IMG/VR virus record: IMGVR_UViG_3300009149_000024
Coordinates: 7,775-71,774 of that record
From: a virus
Strand: one strand, 5' to 3'
Length of the DNA stretch: 64,000 bases
Positions 52,653 through 57,021 of this stretch are shown here, one piece after another (positions within the stretch are counted from its first letter, which is position 1; each line of letters begins with the position of its first letter). The position numbers and the translations under genes were made by a program. The notes under the pieces are model-generated. The model searched no databases. It was not told the origin of the DNA and saw nothing but the letters and a program-made list of their open reading frames with translations.

Positions 52653-53382
52653 ATCAGTTCTTCTAGTACAAGAATTTCTCTAACCTTTTTTACAAGTTCT
52701 TCCATGGTCCCATCATTAATGATTTCATAGTCAAATTTAGCTTTGTCAAGAGATGTTTCTGATGGATGTAATCTTGCAGTGTTCTTACCTTTTTCAGCAG
52801 GTCTTGTTACTCTAATAGTAATACCATGTCTTTTTTCAACAGATTCTAATTCATTAGGAAATCTCATGTCTGTGATAATCCAGTTAGGTAATGCATGTTT
52901 TTCAATAACTTTACCTCTAAATATAGATTCAGTTTCTACATAATCAGCAAACAAAGCATTCACCCATACATTTGTATGTAAACCTTCACGCATTGCTTCT
53001 GTGCCAAGTCTTTGAAGAAACTCTCTTACACTCATCATAACATTAAACTGCATGTCAGCAAATGGTGGTATTGAATTAAGTGGTACATTTTGTACTGTAC
53101 CCCATTCAGATCCTAAAATAGTTTTTTTAAACTCTTGATCTTCAAAGTTTTCTACAGGGATACCTGTAAGGATTGAAGCAATCTGTTTTAATTTGCCAGC
53201 AAACTTTTTAATTTTCCAATCACTTCTAATTTCAAGCATGTCAGTATCTTTAAACTCTTCATCTTTCCAATCTGATGTAAGATATTGAATAATTTTACCT
53301 ACAGTGTCTTTACCTAACCTGACCCTATCCTCCCATTGATACCAATGAGATTGACAGGGTGCTTTTTATTTTCTTTTTTCAT
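52649..53382 (-). CDS. deoxynucleoside monophosphate kinase with replacement N-terminus and a 5-nt frame disruption at 53312-53316
   Basis: MKKENKKHPVNLIGINGRIGSG (53382-53317), then TAGGT, then KDTVGKIIQY...FAGKLK...REFLQRLGTE...ITDMRFPNE...HPSE; removing 5 nt gives a 242-aa ORF. Confidence 0.8.
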
Positions 53383-54012
53383 GTTATTGATTTTTATATT
53401 TCCATTTATATTTTTTGTGAGTATTTCTACTCCTTTTGCAACAAGCAACAATGTGTCCAATTGATCCTTTTATAAATTCAGCAGCTTCAGTAGCTGAATC
53501 AAACACTTGAATAATTTCATCAGTTAAAGAATACTGAATCACTTGTTTCTTTTTATTAGAAGGTTTACCAAGTAATGATTCTCTAATTTGATTTCTTGTT
53601 TCTAAAGAAGGTGATTTACCTTTATTCCAAGGAATACTTCCTTTTTTAAAAGAAGTTTGATTACCTACAGTTAAACCATCTCCACCAGAAGTATGATTAA
53701 CAAGATCAAATCCCCATTGTCTAAATTGTTCTATCCAAAACTTTTCCCAGTATTTCCATTCTGATTCATTTATTTCATCAAGAATATTCATTACAGGTTT
53801 TAAACCTTGGTTTCTTAGACTATTTATCCAATTTCTTTTATAAGAATATTGATTATGTAATCTATTACAATGATTGTGAAATCTTTCTTTTGGATTTTTA
53901 GTCTTGCCTATATATCTAACTTCTTTAGTTATAGGATGTTCTAATGTATAAATGTATACTTTCATAATATTTTTTTACAAAAGTATATATTATACATTTA
54001 ATATGCAAACTT
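53312..54012 (-). mobile_element. homing-endonuclease cassette carrying a recoded 5' end of dNMP kinase
   Basis: stranded original start upstream and recoded copy downstream of the GIY-YIG gene; ends approximate. Confidence 0.75.
53384..53965 (-). CDS. free-standing GIY-YIG homing endonuclease with NUMOD-type DNA-binding domains
   Basis: VYIY...RYIGKT...RFHNH; FKKGSIPWNKGK; C-terminal KQVIQYSL...FDSATEAA...CCK...YKWKY. Confidence 0.85.
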   Translation of the reverse strand: MKVYIYTLEHPITKEVRYIGKTKNPKERFHNHCNRLHNQYSYKRNWINSLRNQGLKPVMNILDEINESEWKYWEKFWIEQFRQWGFDLVNHTSGGDGLTVGNQTSFKKGSIPWNKGKSPSLETRNQIRESLLGKPSNKKKQVIQYSLTDEIIQVFDSATEAAEFIKGSIGHIVACCKRSRNTHKKYKWKYKNQ

Positions 54013-54048
54013 TCCAGAACCTATTTTTCCATTTATTCCTATTATCAT
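53998..54048 (-). pseudogene. stranded original 5' end of dNMP kinase (MIIGINGKIGSGKFAY*)
   Basis: contains P-loop GKIGSGK; ATG overlaps TGA of the upstream gene. Confidence 0.85.
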
Positions 54049-54173
54049 CTTATTTGAATTATTATACCTCCTTTGAAGTTATTCATAGCTTCTTCTTTAG
54101 TGTTGGCTTCAACATTTATCCATTCTTTGTCTTCTTTACCATATGGTAAATATATTATTGTAAATTGTTTCAT
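54045..54173 (-). CDS. hypothetical protein (42 aa)
   Basis: manually translated MKQFTIIYLPYGKEDKEWINVEANTKEEAM...; ATGA overlaps at both ends. Confidence 0.55.
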   Translation of the reverse strand: MKQFTIIYLPYGKEDKEWINVEANTKEEAMNNFKGGIIIQIR

Positions 54174-54463: not shown

Positions 54464-54467
54464 AATT

Positions 54468-56483
54468 TTAAAATAATCTCAATTGATTTGATGATACAGT
54501 TAGAATGTTATTTATTTCATTTTCAATGGCCTGGATATAATAACCTTTATCAATATTATATGATTCCCATTTAGGTTCCATTTTCATTTTGTTAAAGATT
54601 GCTTGTATCCATTTACCAGCTTCTAATTGTATTTCTCTTTTATCAACTCTGTTAACCTTTATAATTTTAACTCCAGTCTTAGATATATAATATCTATTGA
54701 TTTTTTGAAGTTCATCTTCTACAAAAGCACCCTGCTTGATTGATCTGGCCACACATTTCCAATCACCATTTGATTTGCTACCAATACAATAATCAAGTAT
54801 ATTTTTGTTTTCATTTAAATATTCTTCAGGAAGAACATTATGCACAAAATACTGATAGATTGCTTTAGGTATAACTAACTTTGATTTGTTTTTGTGTAGC
54901 TGTAAATTGTGAAAATCAAATCTACCTTTTAACTTCACAGGAGCATAGCTAAACTTATCATTTTCTACTTTAAATAAATAATGTGGATCTGATTGTTTAA
55001 TTGCTCTCCATTTAGTAATGTCAACTTCTTTGTAGTCATTGATACCAATGTAATTGTTTACATCTCCTAATACCAATTTTTGGTATTGATCATGTTCTAA
55101 AGATAAATTGGTAGTTTCTTCCCACTCTTTACAGATAAGCATATACTCATCATAGTACTTTCTAGGTATTAATGTCTCAACACCATCTGTATTATGTAAT
55201 AATGCTATTGCACCTGGGATTCTTTCCATAATTTGCTCATAAAGCATCATCAAACTCAATTGACCATTGATTGTAATCCTCATACATAACTCAGGATCAT
55301 AAAAAAAGCTGTTTTCATCATTGCTAAGACCAAAAGTAGAGTTAAGTATAATCTTGTATACATAATTCATTGGATTGCTCTTAGGGATCTTCTTACGCTC
55401 TTCAAAGAACCATTCATATTGATCACAAAATTCATCAACAGGAAAATGTCCCGGAGACCATCTATTTCTGATTGCAAGATTAGGATAAAAACTGGTAACA
55501 TCTGAAGACATAATAATCATATCTTCATTGCTTTCATAAACACCTTTTTTTCTTGCACCATGTACACCACCTAAACCAAAGTCAGTTTTAACATCTCTGT
55601 AATTCAAACTATACTTGAAGCTGCCTTTAAGATTCTTTCCATTTATTTCTAATGCATTAAATCTTTGCAATAAAGTACTAAACTCACTAGAACTAAACTT
55701 GATATAAGGTAGAATGATATCTTTAATTTTAATGATATCTCTATGTGTTCTCATATCTTTCAATTCTTTTTTAGGAATATTTAGTTTTTCAGATAAATAA
55801 TAGCCAAACAACTCTTTACTAATTCTTGGTTCAGAAGCACTAAATAAATTAATACCATATGTTTTAGTCAATTCTTTTCTTAATCCTATCTGTGATTTTG
55901 ATCTGTTATATATTTCCTTAGTTGACCTTACATCATTAATACAGTATTCCAATATTGTATCAATCTCCTCTCTTGTAGTTATTGCTGATTCATGGTGAAT
56001 AGGCATTTCAAGAATGTTATCCCAATCCATGCTATATTGGATCCATTTCAAACTAGAACGCTTTGCCGGGTTGTCCCAGTGATGCATTTTAAAGATATCT
56101 ATTTGACCAATTGACATTTTCCATTGAGGGTAATCTGAAAACTCCTTTTTATTGCTTTTCTCTATAGCTCTTTGTGCACATCTATAAATGATATTTGCAA
56201 TTTCACAACCCGTAAAATCCCACCAATCATCATGATTATCTAATATAAAATGTGTTATCTGAGCATCAAAAGCTAAACCATTATAAGATATGTGCCATTC
56301 TTTGTTGGCTATATTTGTATTTAAAAAACTTACAAACTTATCTAAATCATTTTGCAGGTCATGAATAACAAAGACTTTTGTTTCCATAGTCTTATAATCT
56401 TCAAATACACCTGTAAAACAATTTTGAAGGGTCTCGTAGTCCATAACCCAGTGTTTTTTGGGTATTTGCATTTTTTCATTCAT
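54468..56483 (-). CDS. polB: DNA polymerase family B with 3'-5' exonuclease
   Basis: ExoI DYET, ExoII YNGLAFD, ExoIII YCINDV; polymerase motifs DVTSFYP, KIILNSTFG, NTDG. Confidence 0.9.
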   Translation of the reverse strand: MNEKMQIPKKHWVMDYETLQNCFTGVFEDYKTMETKVFVIHDLQNDLDKFVSFLNTNIANKEWHISYNGLAFDAQITHFILDNHDDWWDFTGCEIANIIYRCAQRAIEKSNKKEFSDYPQWKMSIGQIDIFKMHHWDNPAKRSSLKWIQYSMDWDNILEMPIHHESAITTREEIDTILEYCINDVRSTKEIYNRSKSQIGLRKELTKTYGINLFSASEPRISKELFGYYLSEKLNIPKKELKDMRTHRDIIKIKDIILPYIKFSSSEFSTLLQRFNALEINGKNLKGSFKYSLNYRDVKTDFGLGGVHGARKKGVYESNEDMIIMSSDVTSFYPNLAIRNRWSPGHFPVDEFCDQYEWFFEERKKIPKSNPMNYVYKIILNSTFGLSNDENSFFYDPELCMRITINGQLSLMMLYEQIMERIPGAIALLHNTDGVETLIPRKYYDEYMLICKEWEETTNLSLEHDQYQKLVLGDVNNYIGINDYKEVDITKWRAIKQSDPHYLFKVENDKFSYAPVKLKGRFDFHNLQLHKNKSKLVIPKAIYQYFVHNVLPEEYLNENKNILDYCIGSKSNGDWKCVARSIKQGAFVEDELQKINRYYISKTGVKIIKVNRVDKREIQLEAGKWIQAIFNKMKMEPKWESYNIDKGYYIQAIENEINNILTVSSNQLRLF

Positions 56484-56982
56484 GTTTTTTTAAGTATTTA
56501 ATTGCTCTTTCCAACATTTCAACGGAATCTTTAAGTTTACCCATTCCTGAATTACAAGGGGTACATAATAAACCTCTTGCTTTTCCTGTATCATGATTAT
56601 GGTCTACATCAAAATTTCTTTTAAATTCATTTTGATGTTTACCACAAATATCACAAAGATTAGATTGTTTATCAAGCATCAATAAATATTTCTCATAAGA
56701 CATATTTTTTATACCTGCATTTTTCCAACCATTCTCTTTATTTGTAATTGGATTATAATAAGATTTGGCTTTAGCTCTAACTTCTTCAGGATTATCAATA
56801 CGCTGTTGTTTTCTTTTGGCATTGATTTCATTTTTATTTTTAGAATATCTTTCTAAAGCTGCTTTTTTAGCTTTTTCTTTATTTTTTTTATACCAATTTC
56901 TTTGAGCTTCTGCTTTTTGTATTTTTCTTTTTTCTGTATCCATACTACAATATACATAAAAGATTATGAAACACCAAATTTA
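56421..56982 (-). mobile_element. homing-endonuclease cassette carrying a recoded 5' end of polB
   Basis: stranded MKHWVMDYETLSN* upstream, recoded KHWVMDYETLQN downstream of the endonuclease; AATT present at both junctions. Confidence 0.8.
56476..56943 (-). CDS. endonuclease VII-type (His-Me) homing endonuclease
   Basis: Q..LCDIC...VDHNHDTGKARGLLCTPCNSGMG..KD motif; basic helical N-terminus. Confidence 0.85.
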   Translation of the reverse strand: MDTEKRKIQKAEAQRNWYKKNKEKAKKAALERYSKNKNEINAKRKQQRIDNPEEVRAKAKSYYNPITNKENGWKNAGIKNMSYEKYLLMLDKQSNLCDICGKHQNEFKRNFDVDHNHDTGKARGLLCTPCNSGMGKLKDSVEMLERAIKYLKKHE

Positions 56983-57021
56983 ATTAGATAATGTTTCATA
57001 ATCCATTACCCAGTGCTTCAT
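56980..57021 (-). pseudogene. stranded original 5' end of polB (MKHWVMDYETLSN*)
   Basis: 11 of 12 residues identical to polB residues 10-21. Confidence 0.88.

What the first reader, a model, noticed from the sequence alone, without database searches (positions are those of the whole stretch)
53312..57021. Start-replacing homing endonuclease cassettes: a splicing-free way to invade conserved gene motifs, seen twice
Seen: two unrelated endonuclease genes (GIY-YIG and EndoVII-type) share one layout on the minus strand. The order is original ATG plus ~12 codons ending in a stop, a TG(T/C)ATATT motif, the endonuclease, then a new ATG abutting the endonuclease stop followed by the same ~12 residues in different synonymous codons and the rest of the host gene. 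Both breakpoints fall at catalytic motifs (PolB ExoI DxE, kinase P-loop). There is no room for a ribozyme and no intein. Established: introns and inteins let endonucleases occupy conserved sites, and fungal mitochondrial endonuclease elements regenerate the 3' ends of genes. Inference: this is the 5'-end mirror strategy, where recoding gives immunity to self-cleavage and blocks deletion by recombination between the duplicates. I do not know of this being described as a phage element class.
Basis: partly seen in the sequence, partly recalled or inferred. Interest (0 to 1): 0.92.

Follow-up and report, generated by a model that had tools for sequence, protein, structure and literature searches.

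The report
Endonuclease cassettes that replace gene starts
Two selfish DNA-cutting-enzyme genes in this freshwater phage sit inside the first codons of its DNA polymerase and nucleotide kinase genes and bring their own substitute gene starts, and the kinase copy most likely needs ribosomes to hop over a 5-base gap.

Summary
On the minus strand an EndoVII-type endonuclease gene (56943..56476) and a GIY-YIG endonuclease gene (53965..53384) each lie between a stranded native start (MKHWVMDYETLSN*, MIIGINGKIGSGKFAY*) and a new start that repeats the same residues in other codons.

Close relatives give the empty alleles. In them the stranded start runs straight into the gene body: 6 loci for the polymerase and 6 for the kinase.

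The kinase cassette is a sharply bounded unit of about 707 nt. It recurs in at least 14 other contigs with different flanks. Analogous EndoVII cassettes sit at the DxE motif of two other polymerases.

The window's kinase is not contiguous: GGT TAG GT AAA breaks the frame by 5 nt. Two other cassette lineages carry 6-nt and 7-nt gaps at the same codon. All have a Gly codon, then a stop, then a Gly codon. All have a strong stem-loop just upstream that 79 gapless kinases lack. This points to a short ribosomal hop.

The closest known system is the T4 MobA/gene 60 element. This is a new variant of a known kind. The scan had already noted similar cassettes on other DNA. Nothing has been tested at the bench.

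The parts
56980..57021 (-). Stranded native start of the DNA polymerase gene (MKHWVMDYETLSN*). It matches the empty alleles through TCTAATT and diverges from 56981 downward.
   Evidence: It shares 27-29 of 30 nt with the six empty alleles L002-L006 and L036.
56424..56981 (-). Inserted cassette A, about 558 nt. The ends are ambiguous by the 4-nt AATT shared at both junctions. It holds a spacer, the EndoVII-type endonuclease gene and the replacement start with an 8-codon extension.
   Evidence: Comparison with the empty alleles.
56476..56943 (-). EndoVII-type (HNH-like) endonuclease ORF, 155 aa.
   Evidence: Pfam PF02945, E 3.8e-24. PHROG endonuclease VII families. Relatives at 58-74% identity exist.
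54468..56483 (-). DNA polymerase ORF with the replacement start (MNEKMQIPKKHWVMDYETLQNCF...). Its ATG overlaps the endonuclease stop.
53998..54048 (-). Stranded native start of the dNMP kinase gene (MIIGINGKIGSGKFAY*). The junction falls after AAG at 54010.
53303..54009 (-). Cassette B, about 707 nt, running from TTTGCATATTAA to GGTAAAGACACT. In the three 5-nt-gap contigs 22-30 of every 30 nt are invariant across this span, and identity collapses beyond it.
   Evidence: Contigs from three other studies match only about 53275..54048 and run on unlike the window on both sides.
53978..54009 (-). TTTG-N20-TAnnTTTG element at the left end of cassette B. It is a possible promoter for the endonuclease and is conserved in the 10 contigs of this cassette family.
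   Evidence: The pattern is not enriched in the window (8 found, 5.0 expected). Its reading as a Bacteroidota-type promoter is recalled, not tested.
53384..53965 (-). GIY-YIG endonuclease ORF, 193 aa.
   Evidence: Pfam PF01541 and NUMOD1. Family alignment A1. Tree.
53314..53382 (-). Replacement start of the kinase: a 12-residue extension, then LIGINGRIGSG, ending in take-off GGT (53319..53317) and stop TAG (53316..53314).
53322..53360 (-). Stem-loop of 8 + 8 bp that ends 2 nt before the take-off codon.
   Evidence: The 52-nt MFE is -22.0 kcal/mol, against -4.86 (sd 2.92, minimum -13.3) in 79 gapless kinases.
53312..53316 (-). 5-nt coding gap TAGGT. The landing GGT lies at 53314..53312 and decoding would resume at AAA 53311..53309.
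   Evidence: No indel here in contigs of 3 other studies or in one RNA-library contig.
52649..53311 (-). Body of the dNMP kinase (KDTVGKIIQYL...), open in the shifted frame.
   Evidence: Pfam PF21448, E 2.3e-13. phrog_139, E 1e-36..

Best explanation
Both features are free-standing homing-endonuclease cassettes. Each has inserted a few codons into a conserved gene, right at a catalytic motif: the DxE strand of the polymerase exonuclease domain and the P-loop of the dNMP kinase.

Each cassette carries, behind the endonuclease gene, a foreign and long-diverged copy of the displaced 5' end with its own ATG. That ATG abuts or overlaps the endonuclease stop. The gene is therefore rebuilt without splicing, and the native ATG with 12-13 codons is left as a dead stub.

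Inferred steps:
- The endonuclease cuts the uninterrupted allele near the junction.
- Repair copies the whole unit from a cassette-bearing genome. It uses the stub side and the gene body as homology arms.
- The diverged copy, and in one kinase lineage a 5-7 nt gap, destroys the target site in the carrier.
- The target gene is translated by re-initiation after the endonuclease ORF.

In the window's kinase, the frame is most likely restored by a short hop. Peptidyl-tRNA-Gly would move from GGT across TAG to the overlapping GGT 5 nt on, helped by a strong stem-loop just upstream. My odds for the hop alone are about 0.6.
For: Empty alleles:
- Polymerase: L002-L006 and L036 (91-95% aa identity) read MKHWVMDYETLSNCFTGVFE without interruption. 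Their DNA equals the window's stub up to the junction.
- Kinase: L001, L002, L004, L005, L006 and L036 read MI(I/L)GI(N/S)G..G(S/A)GKDT without interruption.

Decay stage: L001 (96% aa identity) keeps only the endonuclease tail MLEKAINYLKMYE*, which matches the family consensus of A2. Its polymerase start is MSKKHWVHDYETLQNCF.

Recurrence of cassette B:
- Stub, GIY-YIG gene and new start are all visible in 14 other contigs: L003, L082, L084, L085, L086, L099, L101, L102, L103, L122, L123, L250, L275 and L284.
- L087 and L125 show the stub and the endonuclease gene but are cut by the contig end.
- L088 is cut upstream by the contig end.
- Upstream neighbours and kinase bodies differ between contigs, while the cassette is conserved with sharp ends.
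- Contigs from three further studies match only the cassette.

Frequency: 5 of 80 sampled kinase loci carry a cassette.

Analogues of cassette A: among 65 EndoVII-type loci with a downstream ORF (of 80 fetched), L135 (polymerase of the same kind) and L200 (family A polymerase, PF00476) have a stub and a new start at the DxE motif. Both score 55, against a control maximum of 48.

No intron was found.

Evidence for the hop:
- Three gap variants sit at the same codon: GGT TAG GT AAA (window, L082, L122), GGC TAA GGA AAA (L275) and GGC TGA A GGA AAA (L088).
- Only a Gly-to-Gly hop gives the canonical G..G.GKD(T/L) in all three.
- The replacement-region codons differ mostly synonymously between variants: 3-7 synonymous against 2-3 non-synonymous changes in 11 codons.
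- The frames downstream of the gaps are open.
- The stem-loop is present in 5 of 5 gap cassettes (-20.2 to -30.0 kcal/mol). None of 79 gapless kinases falls below -13.3.
- 3 stem pairs are kept through changes on both sides.
- The layout matches the MobA element: extension, homologous region, take-off Gly, stop, matched landing, end of insert.
Against: - No cleavage, homing, transcript or protein data exist for any of these cassettes.
- Cassette A in this exact form was seen only in the window.
- The left homology arm of cassette B would be only about 39 nt where the upstream genes differ.
- Synonymous divergence of the new starts needs no selection for immunity.

Against the hop:
- Short unassisted hops are inefficient in E. 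coli (recalled).
- The kinase may be dispensable and simply killed by the insertion.
- Each homing event lands in a fresh intact gene, so open downstream frames are weak evidence.
- The N-terminal extension also occurs in a native, gapless, endonuclease-free kinase (L243), so it is not hop-specific.
- The stem-loop ends 0-2 nt before the take-off codon, closer than I recall for T4's 5' stem-loop, and it could serve another purpose.
- The RNA-library contig without an indel may be DNA carry-over.
Confidence: 0.85

Rival explanations
1. The cassette explanation holds, but the window's kinase is a dead gene. The 5-nt insertion (and the 6- and 7-nt ones elsewhere) only protects the carrier from the endonuclease or is a repair scar. 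No full-length kinase is made.
For: - The frame break is real.
- dNMP kinases may be dispensable for phages with ordinary DNA (inference).
- Other lineages of the same endonuclease family rebuild the gene without any gap (L003, L084-L086, L099-L103, L123, L250, L284).
- Repeated homing into intact genes would keep downstream frames open.
Against: - Three gap lengths all keep a Gly codon, an immediate stop and a Gly codon before AAA GAY.
- The replacement peptide upstream of the gap is conserved through mostly synonymous change.
- A strong stem-loop with compensatory changes is present in 5 of 5 gap cassettes and in 0 of 79 gapless kinases.
None of this is expected for a decaying gene.
Confidence: 0.33
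2. The duplicated starts are one-off scars of illegitimate recombination or local gene conversion beside ordinary intergenic endonuclease genes. They are not parts of a unit that moves as a whole.
For: - Distant relatives of the GIY-YIG enzyme sit directly upstream of another kinase type without any stub (L127, L128). That shows a plain intergenic arrangement, which may be the ancestral one.
- Cassette A in its exact form was seen once.
- AATT microhomology at both junctions of cassette A fits an illegitimate first insertion.
Against: - The same left junction (GK|FA[YHC]*) and the same conserved 700-nt unit occur in 10 contigs with different upstream genes and different kinase bodies. They also occur in three other studies' contigs, with flanks unlike the window.
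- Other left-junction types (GSG|FCKF*, GSG|ICI*) recur too.
Confidence: 0.07
3. The endonuclease genes lie in self-splicing introns or inteins. The short upstream ORFs would then be first exons.
For: Short first exons beside endonuclease genes are known, for example the ICP1 terminase (Barth et al. 2023, passages read).
Against: - No Rfam intron was found at E up to 1.
- The downstream gene carries its own complete copy of the same residues with an ATG, which an exon 2 would not need.
- The spacers are 36 and 32 nt on the 5' side and 0-1 nt on the 3' side.
- The endonucleases are not in frame with the host gene.
- An RNA-library contig spans the endonuclease end, the new start and the gap unchanged (weak evidence).
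Confidence: 0.02
4. The layout or the 5-nt gap is an assembly or sequencing artefact.
For: The window is a metagenome-derived virus record.
Against: - The identical gap occurs in L082 and L122.
- It also occurs, without any indel, in contigs of runs from three other studies.
- The cassette architecture is seen in many independent contigs.
Confidence: 0.01

Closest known systems
MobA element of T4-like phages (mobA plus the gene 60 bypass cassette in the topoisomerase gene). Sources: Manning & Atkins 2022 bioRxiv 10.1101/2022.08.31.505936 (abstract and sections 6, 12, 15, 16 read); Bonocora et al. 2011 (recalled).
   Same: - A free-standing endonuclease gene is inserted at a critical motif of a conserved gene.
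- The element carries an N-terminal extension and a diverged homologous region that replaces the parental sequence.
- The endonuclease ORF overlaps the new ORF.
[quoted passage not shown]
- Decay stages exist.
- In the gapped kinase lineage there is a take-off Gly codon followed by a stop, a matched Gly landing codon, an upstream stem-loop, and an insert that ends just after the landing codon.
   Different: - The nucleases belong to other families (GIY-YIG and EndoVII-type, not MobA HNH), and the targets differ.
- The insertion lies 12-13 codons into the gene. The upstream piece is therefore a dead stub, not a functional subunit with a C-terminal extension.
- The parental segment is kept, not deleted.
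- The gap is 5-7 nt, not 50.
- Most cassettes here have no gap at all.
mobE inside nrdA of Aeromonas phage Aeh1 ('genes in pieces'). Source: as described in Edgell et al. 2010, PMC2988022, and in Manning & Atkins section 12 (passages read).
   Same: A free-standing endonuclease sits inside a conserved gene without an intron or intein, and the host function is kept.
   Different: There the two halves are both needed and assemble as proteins. Here one complete protein is made from the new start.
Mobile endonuclease ORFs of fungal mitochondria that carry a foreign C-terminus (Allomyces atp6; Glomus atp6, atp9, cox2, nad3). Sources: Beaudet et al. 2013, PMC3630166 (passages read); Paquin et al. 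1994 (recalled).
   Same: - It is the mirror image: a foreign, synonymously diverged copy of the gene end travels with the endonuclease.
- The native end is left stranded.
- The native piece matches close relatives while the inserted piece does not.
   Different: - It affects the 3' end rather than the 5' end.
- It occurs in organelles rather than phages.
- The enzymes are mostly LAGLIDADG.
- The inserted C-terminus lies upstream of the endonuclease and is often in frame with it.
Intronless homing of seg and mob genes of T4. Source: Edgell et al. 2010 review (passages read).
   Same: Free-standing GIY-YIG or HNH-type genes spread by cleavage of a nearby conserved gene and co-conversion of flanks.
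   Different: Seg and mob genes sit between genes and leave no stub. L127 and L128 look like this plain arrangement.
Short translational bypasses: phage phiHau3 terminase 10-nt inserts (Antonov et al. 2023, PMC10732093, passages read); +5/+6 hops in E. coli (Weiss et al. 1987, seen only in that paper's reference list).
   Same: A few nucleotides are skipped by peptidyl-tRNA re-pairing at a slow A-site codon.
   Different: Those cases are not linked to an endonuclease cassette. phiHau3 uses a rare UUA codon, not a stop.
F-CphI, an EndoVII-motif homing endonuclease of cyanophage S-PM2 (PMC6083498; search listing and start of abstract only).
   Same: It is a free-standing phage homing endonuclease with the Endo VII catalytic motif.
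   Different: No stub or replacement start appears in what I saw of that paper.

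Membership tests
Free-standing GIY-YIG homing endonuclease | GIY-YIG catalytic domain plus a DNA-binding module | tested here: met
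   PF01541, E 1.1e-6. NUMOD1 at 22.3 bits, just under its cut-off of 22.8. The relative L088 passes NUMOD1 at 27.5 bits.
Free-standing GIY-YIG homing endonuclease | Sporadic presence at one site, with empty alleles in close relatives | tested here: met
   6 empty alleles and 1 carrier among the 7 closest relatives. 5 of 80 sampled kinase loci are carriers.
Free-standing GIY-YIG homing endonuclease | Site-specific cleavage of the empty allele and preferential inheritance | not testable with these tools
   Needs purified enzyme and mixed infections.
EndoVII-motif homing endonuclease (F-CphI-like) | Endonuclease_7 catalytic domain in a free-standing phage ORF | tested here: met
   PF02945, E 3.8e-24. 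PHROG endonuclease VII families.
EndoVII-motif homing endonuclease (F-CphI-like) | Presence/absence polymorphism at the site | tested here: met
   None of the 80 related polymerase loci has it between the upstream gene and the polymerase. L001 keeps a remnant.
MobA/gene 60 bypass element | MobA-type HNH endonuclease inserted in the topoisomerase large-subunit gene | tested here: not met
   The nuclease families and the target genes are different.
MobA/gene 60 bypass element | Element-encoded diverged homologous region replacing the parental sequence | tested here: met
   The new start shares 21-23 of 30 nt with the empty alleles, against 27-29 of 30 for the stub (polymerase). For the kinase the figures are 17-21 and 20-27 of 30.
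MobA/gene 60 bypass element | Coding gap with take-off codon, slow A-site codon and matched landing codon, bypassed by ribosomes | tested here: inconclusive
   The sequence features are present in three variants, together with a stem-loop. The gap is 5-7 nt, not 50. Bypassing itself cannot be tested here.
Group I intron or intein with endonuclease | Ribozyme fold, or an in-frame Hint domain, flanking the endonuclease | tested here: not met
   No Rfam match at E up to 1 apart from a chance snoRNA hit. The endonucleases are separate ORFs with their own ATG and stop.
   PHROG calls it a DNA polymerase. The N-terminal model matches family B exonuclease domains best, Z 7.2-8.6, which is a middling range. 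Pfam, PDB sequence and PDB profile searches were silent.

The most novel reading that the evidence does not exclude
The GIY-YIG cassette of the window (with L082, L122, L275 and L088) is a second, independent natural family of endonuclease-borne translational bypass.
- The coding gap is 5-7 nt and sits in the P-loop codons of a dNMP kinase.
- Ribosomes cross it by a Gly-to-Gly hop over a stop codon.
- The hop is driven by a conserved stem-loop that abuts the take-off codon.
- The gap also serves to make the carrier immune to its own endonuclease.

Together with the gapless lineages, this would make 'start replacement' a general way for phage homing endonucleases to occupy catalytic motifs without an intron or intein.
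Probability: 0.55. Interest if true: 0.88.

Novelty: new variant of a known kind. Interest (0 to 1): 0.78.

Why it matters
Homing endonucleases are thought to need an intron, an intein or an intergenic site to live beside essential genes. These cassettes show a third way: they bring a spare gene start. The route is used repeatedly, by two nuclease families, at the most conserved codons of replication and nucleotide-metabolism genes.

It also has a practical consequence for annotation. Short orphan ORFs upstream of endonuclease genes, and apparently 5'-truncated or frameshifted genes behind them, are likely to be misannotated.

The gapped kinase lineage offers a small, comparative and easily cloned system of about 130 nt. 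It has three natural gap lengths for studying how ribosomes hop. Published natural examples of hopping are few: T4 gene 60 and its relatives, yeast mitochondrial byps, and phiHau3.

The gapless and gapped lineages of one endonuclease family could also show what the gap adds, whether immunity or regulation.

Tried and rejected
Intron or ribozyme: an Rfam scan of 52000..58000 at E up to 1 gave only a chance snoRNA hit.

Shared motifs:
- TG(T/C)ATATT: 18 found, 17.3 expected.
- GTATATTGTAGT with up to 2 mismatches: 10 found, 13.1 expected.
- TTTG-N18-22-TAnnTTTG: 8 found, 5.0 expected.
None is enriched in the window.

Simple frameshift models for the kinase:
- A -1 or +2 shift in the window gives a non-canonical P-loop.
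- In L275 the stop is in frame, so no frameshift helps.
- A -1 slip at the AAA AAG run early in the new ORF would bypass the homologous LIGINGRIGSG residues entirely. This was reasoned.

N-terminal extension as a hop-specific signal: weakened, because L243 has it natively without a gap.

A take-off stem-loop like T4's: clear only in L275. The 61-nt folds around the gap in the window and L088 are not better than shuffles (z 0.65 and 0.50).

The gaps of about 200-560 nt upstream of the polymerase in 39 other loci hold small ORFs (HTH-like, 90-110 aa, 139 aa). None matched the window's endonuclease by tblastn. I ran no family search on them.

An exact 28-nt search for the gap region in viral contigs found nothing. 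The relatives were found through the protein instead.

The search with the single EndoVII protein found only 2 distant loci.

GenBank phages hold no close relative of the locus. The distant DNA search gave 2 short hits. The best GIY-YIG relative is 44% identical, in an unannotated 642-kb record.

PDB sequence and profile searches with the polymerase found nothing usable. Foldseek gave only E 0.04 rows.

The parts of 53200-54100 that no contig covered are not interpreted.

Literature: six searches. For these I read titles and abstract starts, plus passages of five papers. None turned up a description of a stranded native start with an endonuclease-borne replacement start in phages. The papers I cite as recalled were not seen.

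Full report
WHAT IS THERE

The window is part of a 71.8-kb virus record estimated at 62% complete. Its GC content is 31%. Close DNA matches come from freshwater, lake, sediment and subsurface metagenomes.

On the minus strand the gene order is as follows:
- a 193-aa ORF and a 138-aa ORF;
- a 13-codon mini-ORF (57021..56980, MKHWVMDYETLSN*);
- an Endonuclease_7 ORF (56943..56476);
- a 671-aa DNA polymerase (56483..54468);
- a 97-aa ORF and a 42-aa ORF;
- a 16-codon mini-ORF (54048..53998, MIIGINGKIGSGKFAY*);
- a GIY-YIG ORF (53965..53384);
- a 22-codon ORF (53382..53314);
- the body of a dNMP kinase (to 52649).

The family assignments come from Pfam and PHROGs.

THE DUPLICATED STARTS ARE REAL

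The polymerase begins MNEKMQIPKKHWVMDYETLQNCF. The ten residues KHWVMDYETL repeat the mini-ORF with 22 of 30 nt identical and 7 of 10 codons changed, all synonymously.

The 22-codon ORF reads MKKENKKHPVNLIGINGRIGSG. It repeats IGING(K/R)IGSG of the second mini-ORF with 21 of 30 nt identical.

A window-wide control looked at 58 ORFs. Only the polymerase N-terminus has an upstream copy above the reversed-peptide control (66 against a maximum of 40). The kinase pair scores 50.

EMPTY ALLELES

A scan of IMG/VR with the polymerase returned 80 related loci.

The six close relatives L002-L006 and L036 (91-95% aa identity) have the upstream 138-aa gene, the same intergenic DNA, and then ATG AAG CAY TGG ... 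TCT AAT TGT TTT. That is the window's stub running straight into the gene body. The window departs from them after TCTAATT (at 56981) and rejoins at AATTGTTTTACAGG (about 56423). The insert is therefore about 558 nt, with AATT at both junctions.

The stub shares 27-29 of 30 nt with these empty alleles. The new start shares only 21-23. So the stub is the local copy and the new start is foreign.

L001 is the closest relative at 96%. It has neither a stub nor an endonuclease gene, but it keeps MLEKAINYLKMYE* directly before its polymerase start MSKKHWVHDYETLQNCF. That peptide is the conserved C-terminus of this endonuclease family (alignment A2). L001 is therefore a decayed carrier.

None of the 80 loci has a match to the window's endonuclease in that position. 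The longer spacers in 39 loci hold other small ORFs.

THE KINASE CASSETTE IS A RECURRING MOBILE UNIT

Among the seven close relatives, six have an uninterrupted kinase start, MI(I/L)GI(N/S)G..G(S/A)GKDT. L003 has the same layout as the window: stub MIIGISGRMGSGKFAH*, a 229-aa GIY-YIG gene, and an overlapping new start MALIGISGKIGVGKDT that continues in frame.

Searches with the endonuclease and with an alignment of it, and with the kinase, gave the following:
- 14 further contigs with the stub, the endonuclease and the new start all visible;
- two contigs cut before the new start;
- one contig cut before the stub.

The stubs differ from contig to contig at synonymous sites, and some have damaged P-loops (GKSKSGK, GKIDAGK, GKISTDK). 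The upstream neighbours are unrelated, and the kinase bodies are of different types.

From TTTGCATATTAA onward, however, the sequence is conserved in the 10 contigs of the window's cassette family. In the three contigs closest to the window, 22-30 of every 30 nt are invariant from that point to GGTAAAGAYACT. Identity then collapses.

Contigs from runs of three other studies match the window at 96-97% or less, and only over about 53275..54048. They continue with unrelated sequence on both sides.

Other lineages of the endonuclease have other left junctions (GSG|FCKF*, SSG|IW*, GSG|ICI*). Two distant relatives (L127, L128) sit directly upstream of another kinase type with no stub. That is the ordinary intergenic arrangement and a plausible starting point for the cassette.

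In a sample of 80 kinase loci, 5 carry a cassette.

THE POLYMERASE CASSETTE HAS ANALOGUES

In a sample of 80 more distant EndoVII-type loci, 65 had a downstream ORF. Three exceeded all 638 mismatched controls:
- L135: stub MRDKKFWVMDYETIVSI..., the endonuclease, then MKRKPKYWIYDYETIINAFVAVF of a polymerase of the same kind.
- L200: stub MKRIALDIETNLVH...*, the endonuclease, then an overlapping MRIALDIETNLAHDH of a family A polymerase, with 8 of 10 codons changed synonymously.
- L207: doubtful.

L135 lies on the same 8.6-kb contig as the kinase cassette L085. The two cassette types therefore co-occur in a second phage.

ARE THE BREAKPOINTS AT CATALYTIC MOTIFS?

The kinase breakpoint lies inside the Walker A loop, at GSGK|.

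For the polymerase, an AlphaFold model of residues 1-260 (mean pLDDT 65, with the first four strands and helices at 80-95) aligns to DEDD exonuclease domains. Family B polymerases come first, at Z 7.2-8.6. D15 and E17 lie on the first strand and are invariant in 12 of 12 relatives. The ExoI reading is therefore reasonable. Family B membership is not shown.

THE FRAME BREAK

After GGG TCA GGT the window reads TAG GT and then AAA GAC ACT. The canonical continuation GKDT is 5 nt out of frame.

The same 5 nt occur in L082 and L122, in front of two other kinase bodies. They also occur, with no indel, in the contigs of three other studies and in one contig from an RNA library. The break is therefore not an artefact.

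Two more cassette lineages are broken at the same codon in other ways:
- L275 has GGC TAA GGA AAA GAC, a 6-nt in-frame gap.
- L088 has GGC TGA A GGA AAA GAT, a 7-nt gap.

All three stop codons are used. Each follows a Gly codon directly, and each gap ends in a Gly codon placed just before the Lys codon.

No single frameshift rule fits gaps of 5, 6 and 7 nt. Re-pairing of peptidyl-tRNA-Gly at the downstream Gly codon gives G(R/K/Y)IG(S/A)GKD(T/L) in every case.

Between the three variants, the 11 codons before the gap differ at 5-10 codons, mostly synonymously. That speaks for translation under selection.

The three share the C-terminal end of the endonuclease (..KK[YF].WKYKN) and a 10-12-residue extension with a conserved Pro. 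This holds although the N-terminal parts of the endonucleases fall in different places on the tree. The 3' module may therefore have one origin.

THE STEM-LOOP

In all five gapped contigs, the 52 nt ending at the take-off codon fold into a two-part hairpin of 16-19 bp, at -20.2 to -30.0 kcal/mol. The same segment of 79 gapless kinase genes folds at -4.86 on average (sd 2.92, best -13.3).

In the window a 126-nt stretch has z -2.9 against shuffles.

The arms lie in the extension (HPV / APV / SP) and in the (R/Y/K)-I-G codons. RNAalifold finds 15 pairs, of which 3 are kept through changes on both sides.

L275 has in addition a hairpin that holds the take-off codon and the stop in its stem.

COMPARISON WITH WHAT IS KNOWN

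The MobA element of T4-like phages is the closest match. According to Manning & Atkins:
- It consists of an endonuclease gene flanked by a C-terminal extension for the upstream ORF and an N-terminal extension for the downstream ORF.
- It carries an insert-encoded homologous region, 67-81% identical to the parental DNA.
- It has a coding gap that starts at a Gly (or Asp) codon followed by UAG, UGA or a rare codon, with a matched landing codon.
- The insert ends at or just after the landing codon.
- The gap, not the polymorphisms, protects against MobA.
- Decay stages are common.

The cassettes here share that logic but differ in several ways. They use other nucleases and other targets. They sit so near the 5' end that the upstream piece is discarded rather than kept as a subunit. 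They keep the parental segment as a stub. They have either no gap or a very short one.

They are also the mirror image of the fungal mitochondrial endonuclease ORFs that bring a foreign C-terminus and strand the native one.

Six literature searches found no description of the 5' version in phages.

This scan's own earlier notes list at least eight similar cassettes on other DNA, several with short gaps. Those are unchecked AI notes and were not used as evidence. They do mean the pattern is not unique to this window.

VERDICT

Shown by comparison:
- the insertion points;
- the foreign origin of the new starts;
- the unit character and spread of the kinase cassette;
- the reality of the gap and its associated signals.

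Inferred:
- cleavage of the empty alleles;
- homing by double-strand-break repair;
- immunity of carriers;
- translational coupling to the endonuclease ORF;
- the hop.

I put 0.85 on the cassette model and about 0.6 on the hop.

Noticed in passing
L001:5960-6010 (polymerase start region of the closest relative): A remnant of the EndoVII-type endonuclease (MLEKAINYLKMYE*) is fused to the native ATG position, followed by an overlapping polymerase start MSKKHWVHDYETLQNCF. This is a decayed carrier in which the stub and most of the endonuclease gene have been deleted.
   Followed up: partly
L135 and L085 (both on IMGVR_UViG_3300010885_018018, 8.6 kb): A second phage carries both cassette types side by side: an EndoVII-type cassette at the polymerase DxE motif and a GIY-YIG cassette at the kinase P-loop, as in the window.
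   Followed up: partly
window 56944..56958 (-) and L099/L101/L102, 15 nt before the endonuclease ATG: The 12 nt GTATATTGTAGT directly before the ATG of the window's EndoVII-type gene also stand directly before the ATG of the GIY-YIG genes of L099, L101 and L102. Those are unrelated cassettes. It may be a shared expression signal. The 12-mer is unique in the window.
   Followed up: partly
window 53978..54009 (-): TTTG-N20-TAnnTTTG starts exactly at the left junction of the kinase cassette and is conserved in 10 contigs. From memory it resembles the Bacteroidota promoter consensus. Together with the lack of Shine-Dalgarno sequences before the genes read here, this hints at a Bacteroidota host. 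Not tested.
   Followed up: no
L200:2233-4240: The family A polymerase behind the L200 cassette is itself in pieces: a 282-aa ORF, an overlapping 142-aa ORF of unknown kind, then the PF00476 part. Further insertions are likely.
   Followed up: no
L008, L015, L020, L028-L031, L034, L037, L043, L049, L057, L059 (upstream of the polymerase): In many relatives, a 44-62-aa ORF with a helix-turn-helix-like motif (..AAKALGIT.RTLY.Y..) ends by overlapping the polymerase ATG. It could be a regulator or the leftover DNA-binding module of a lost endonuclease.
   Followed up: no
L243:1684-2400: A native kinase without an endonuclease, stub or gap starts MNKSPNLIGISGKIGTGKDT. It has the same kind of N-terminal extension as the gapped cassettes. 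It may be the donor lineage of their replacement start, or a hit-and-run relic.
   Followed up: partly
L295 (LR756502.1:541976-545554): In a 642-kb uncultured phage, a 44%-identical GIY-YIG gene lies upstream of a different P-loop kinase (..IIMGPSGSGKDF..). It is preceded by a short P-loop-like fragment (IFLGKSGSGS) with no ATG. This may be another, older stub.
   Followed up: partly
L127:1501-2882, L128:1501-2822: Distant GIY-YIG relatives overlap the start of another kinase type (M..LILGVCGKARSGKNQ) with no stub upstream. This is the plain intergenic arrangement from which the start-replacing cassette may have arisen.
   Followed up: partly
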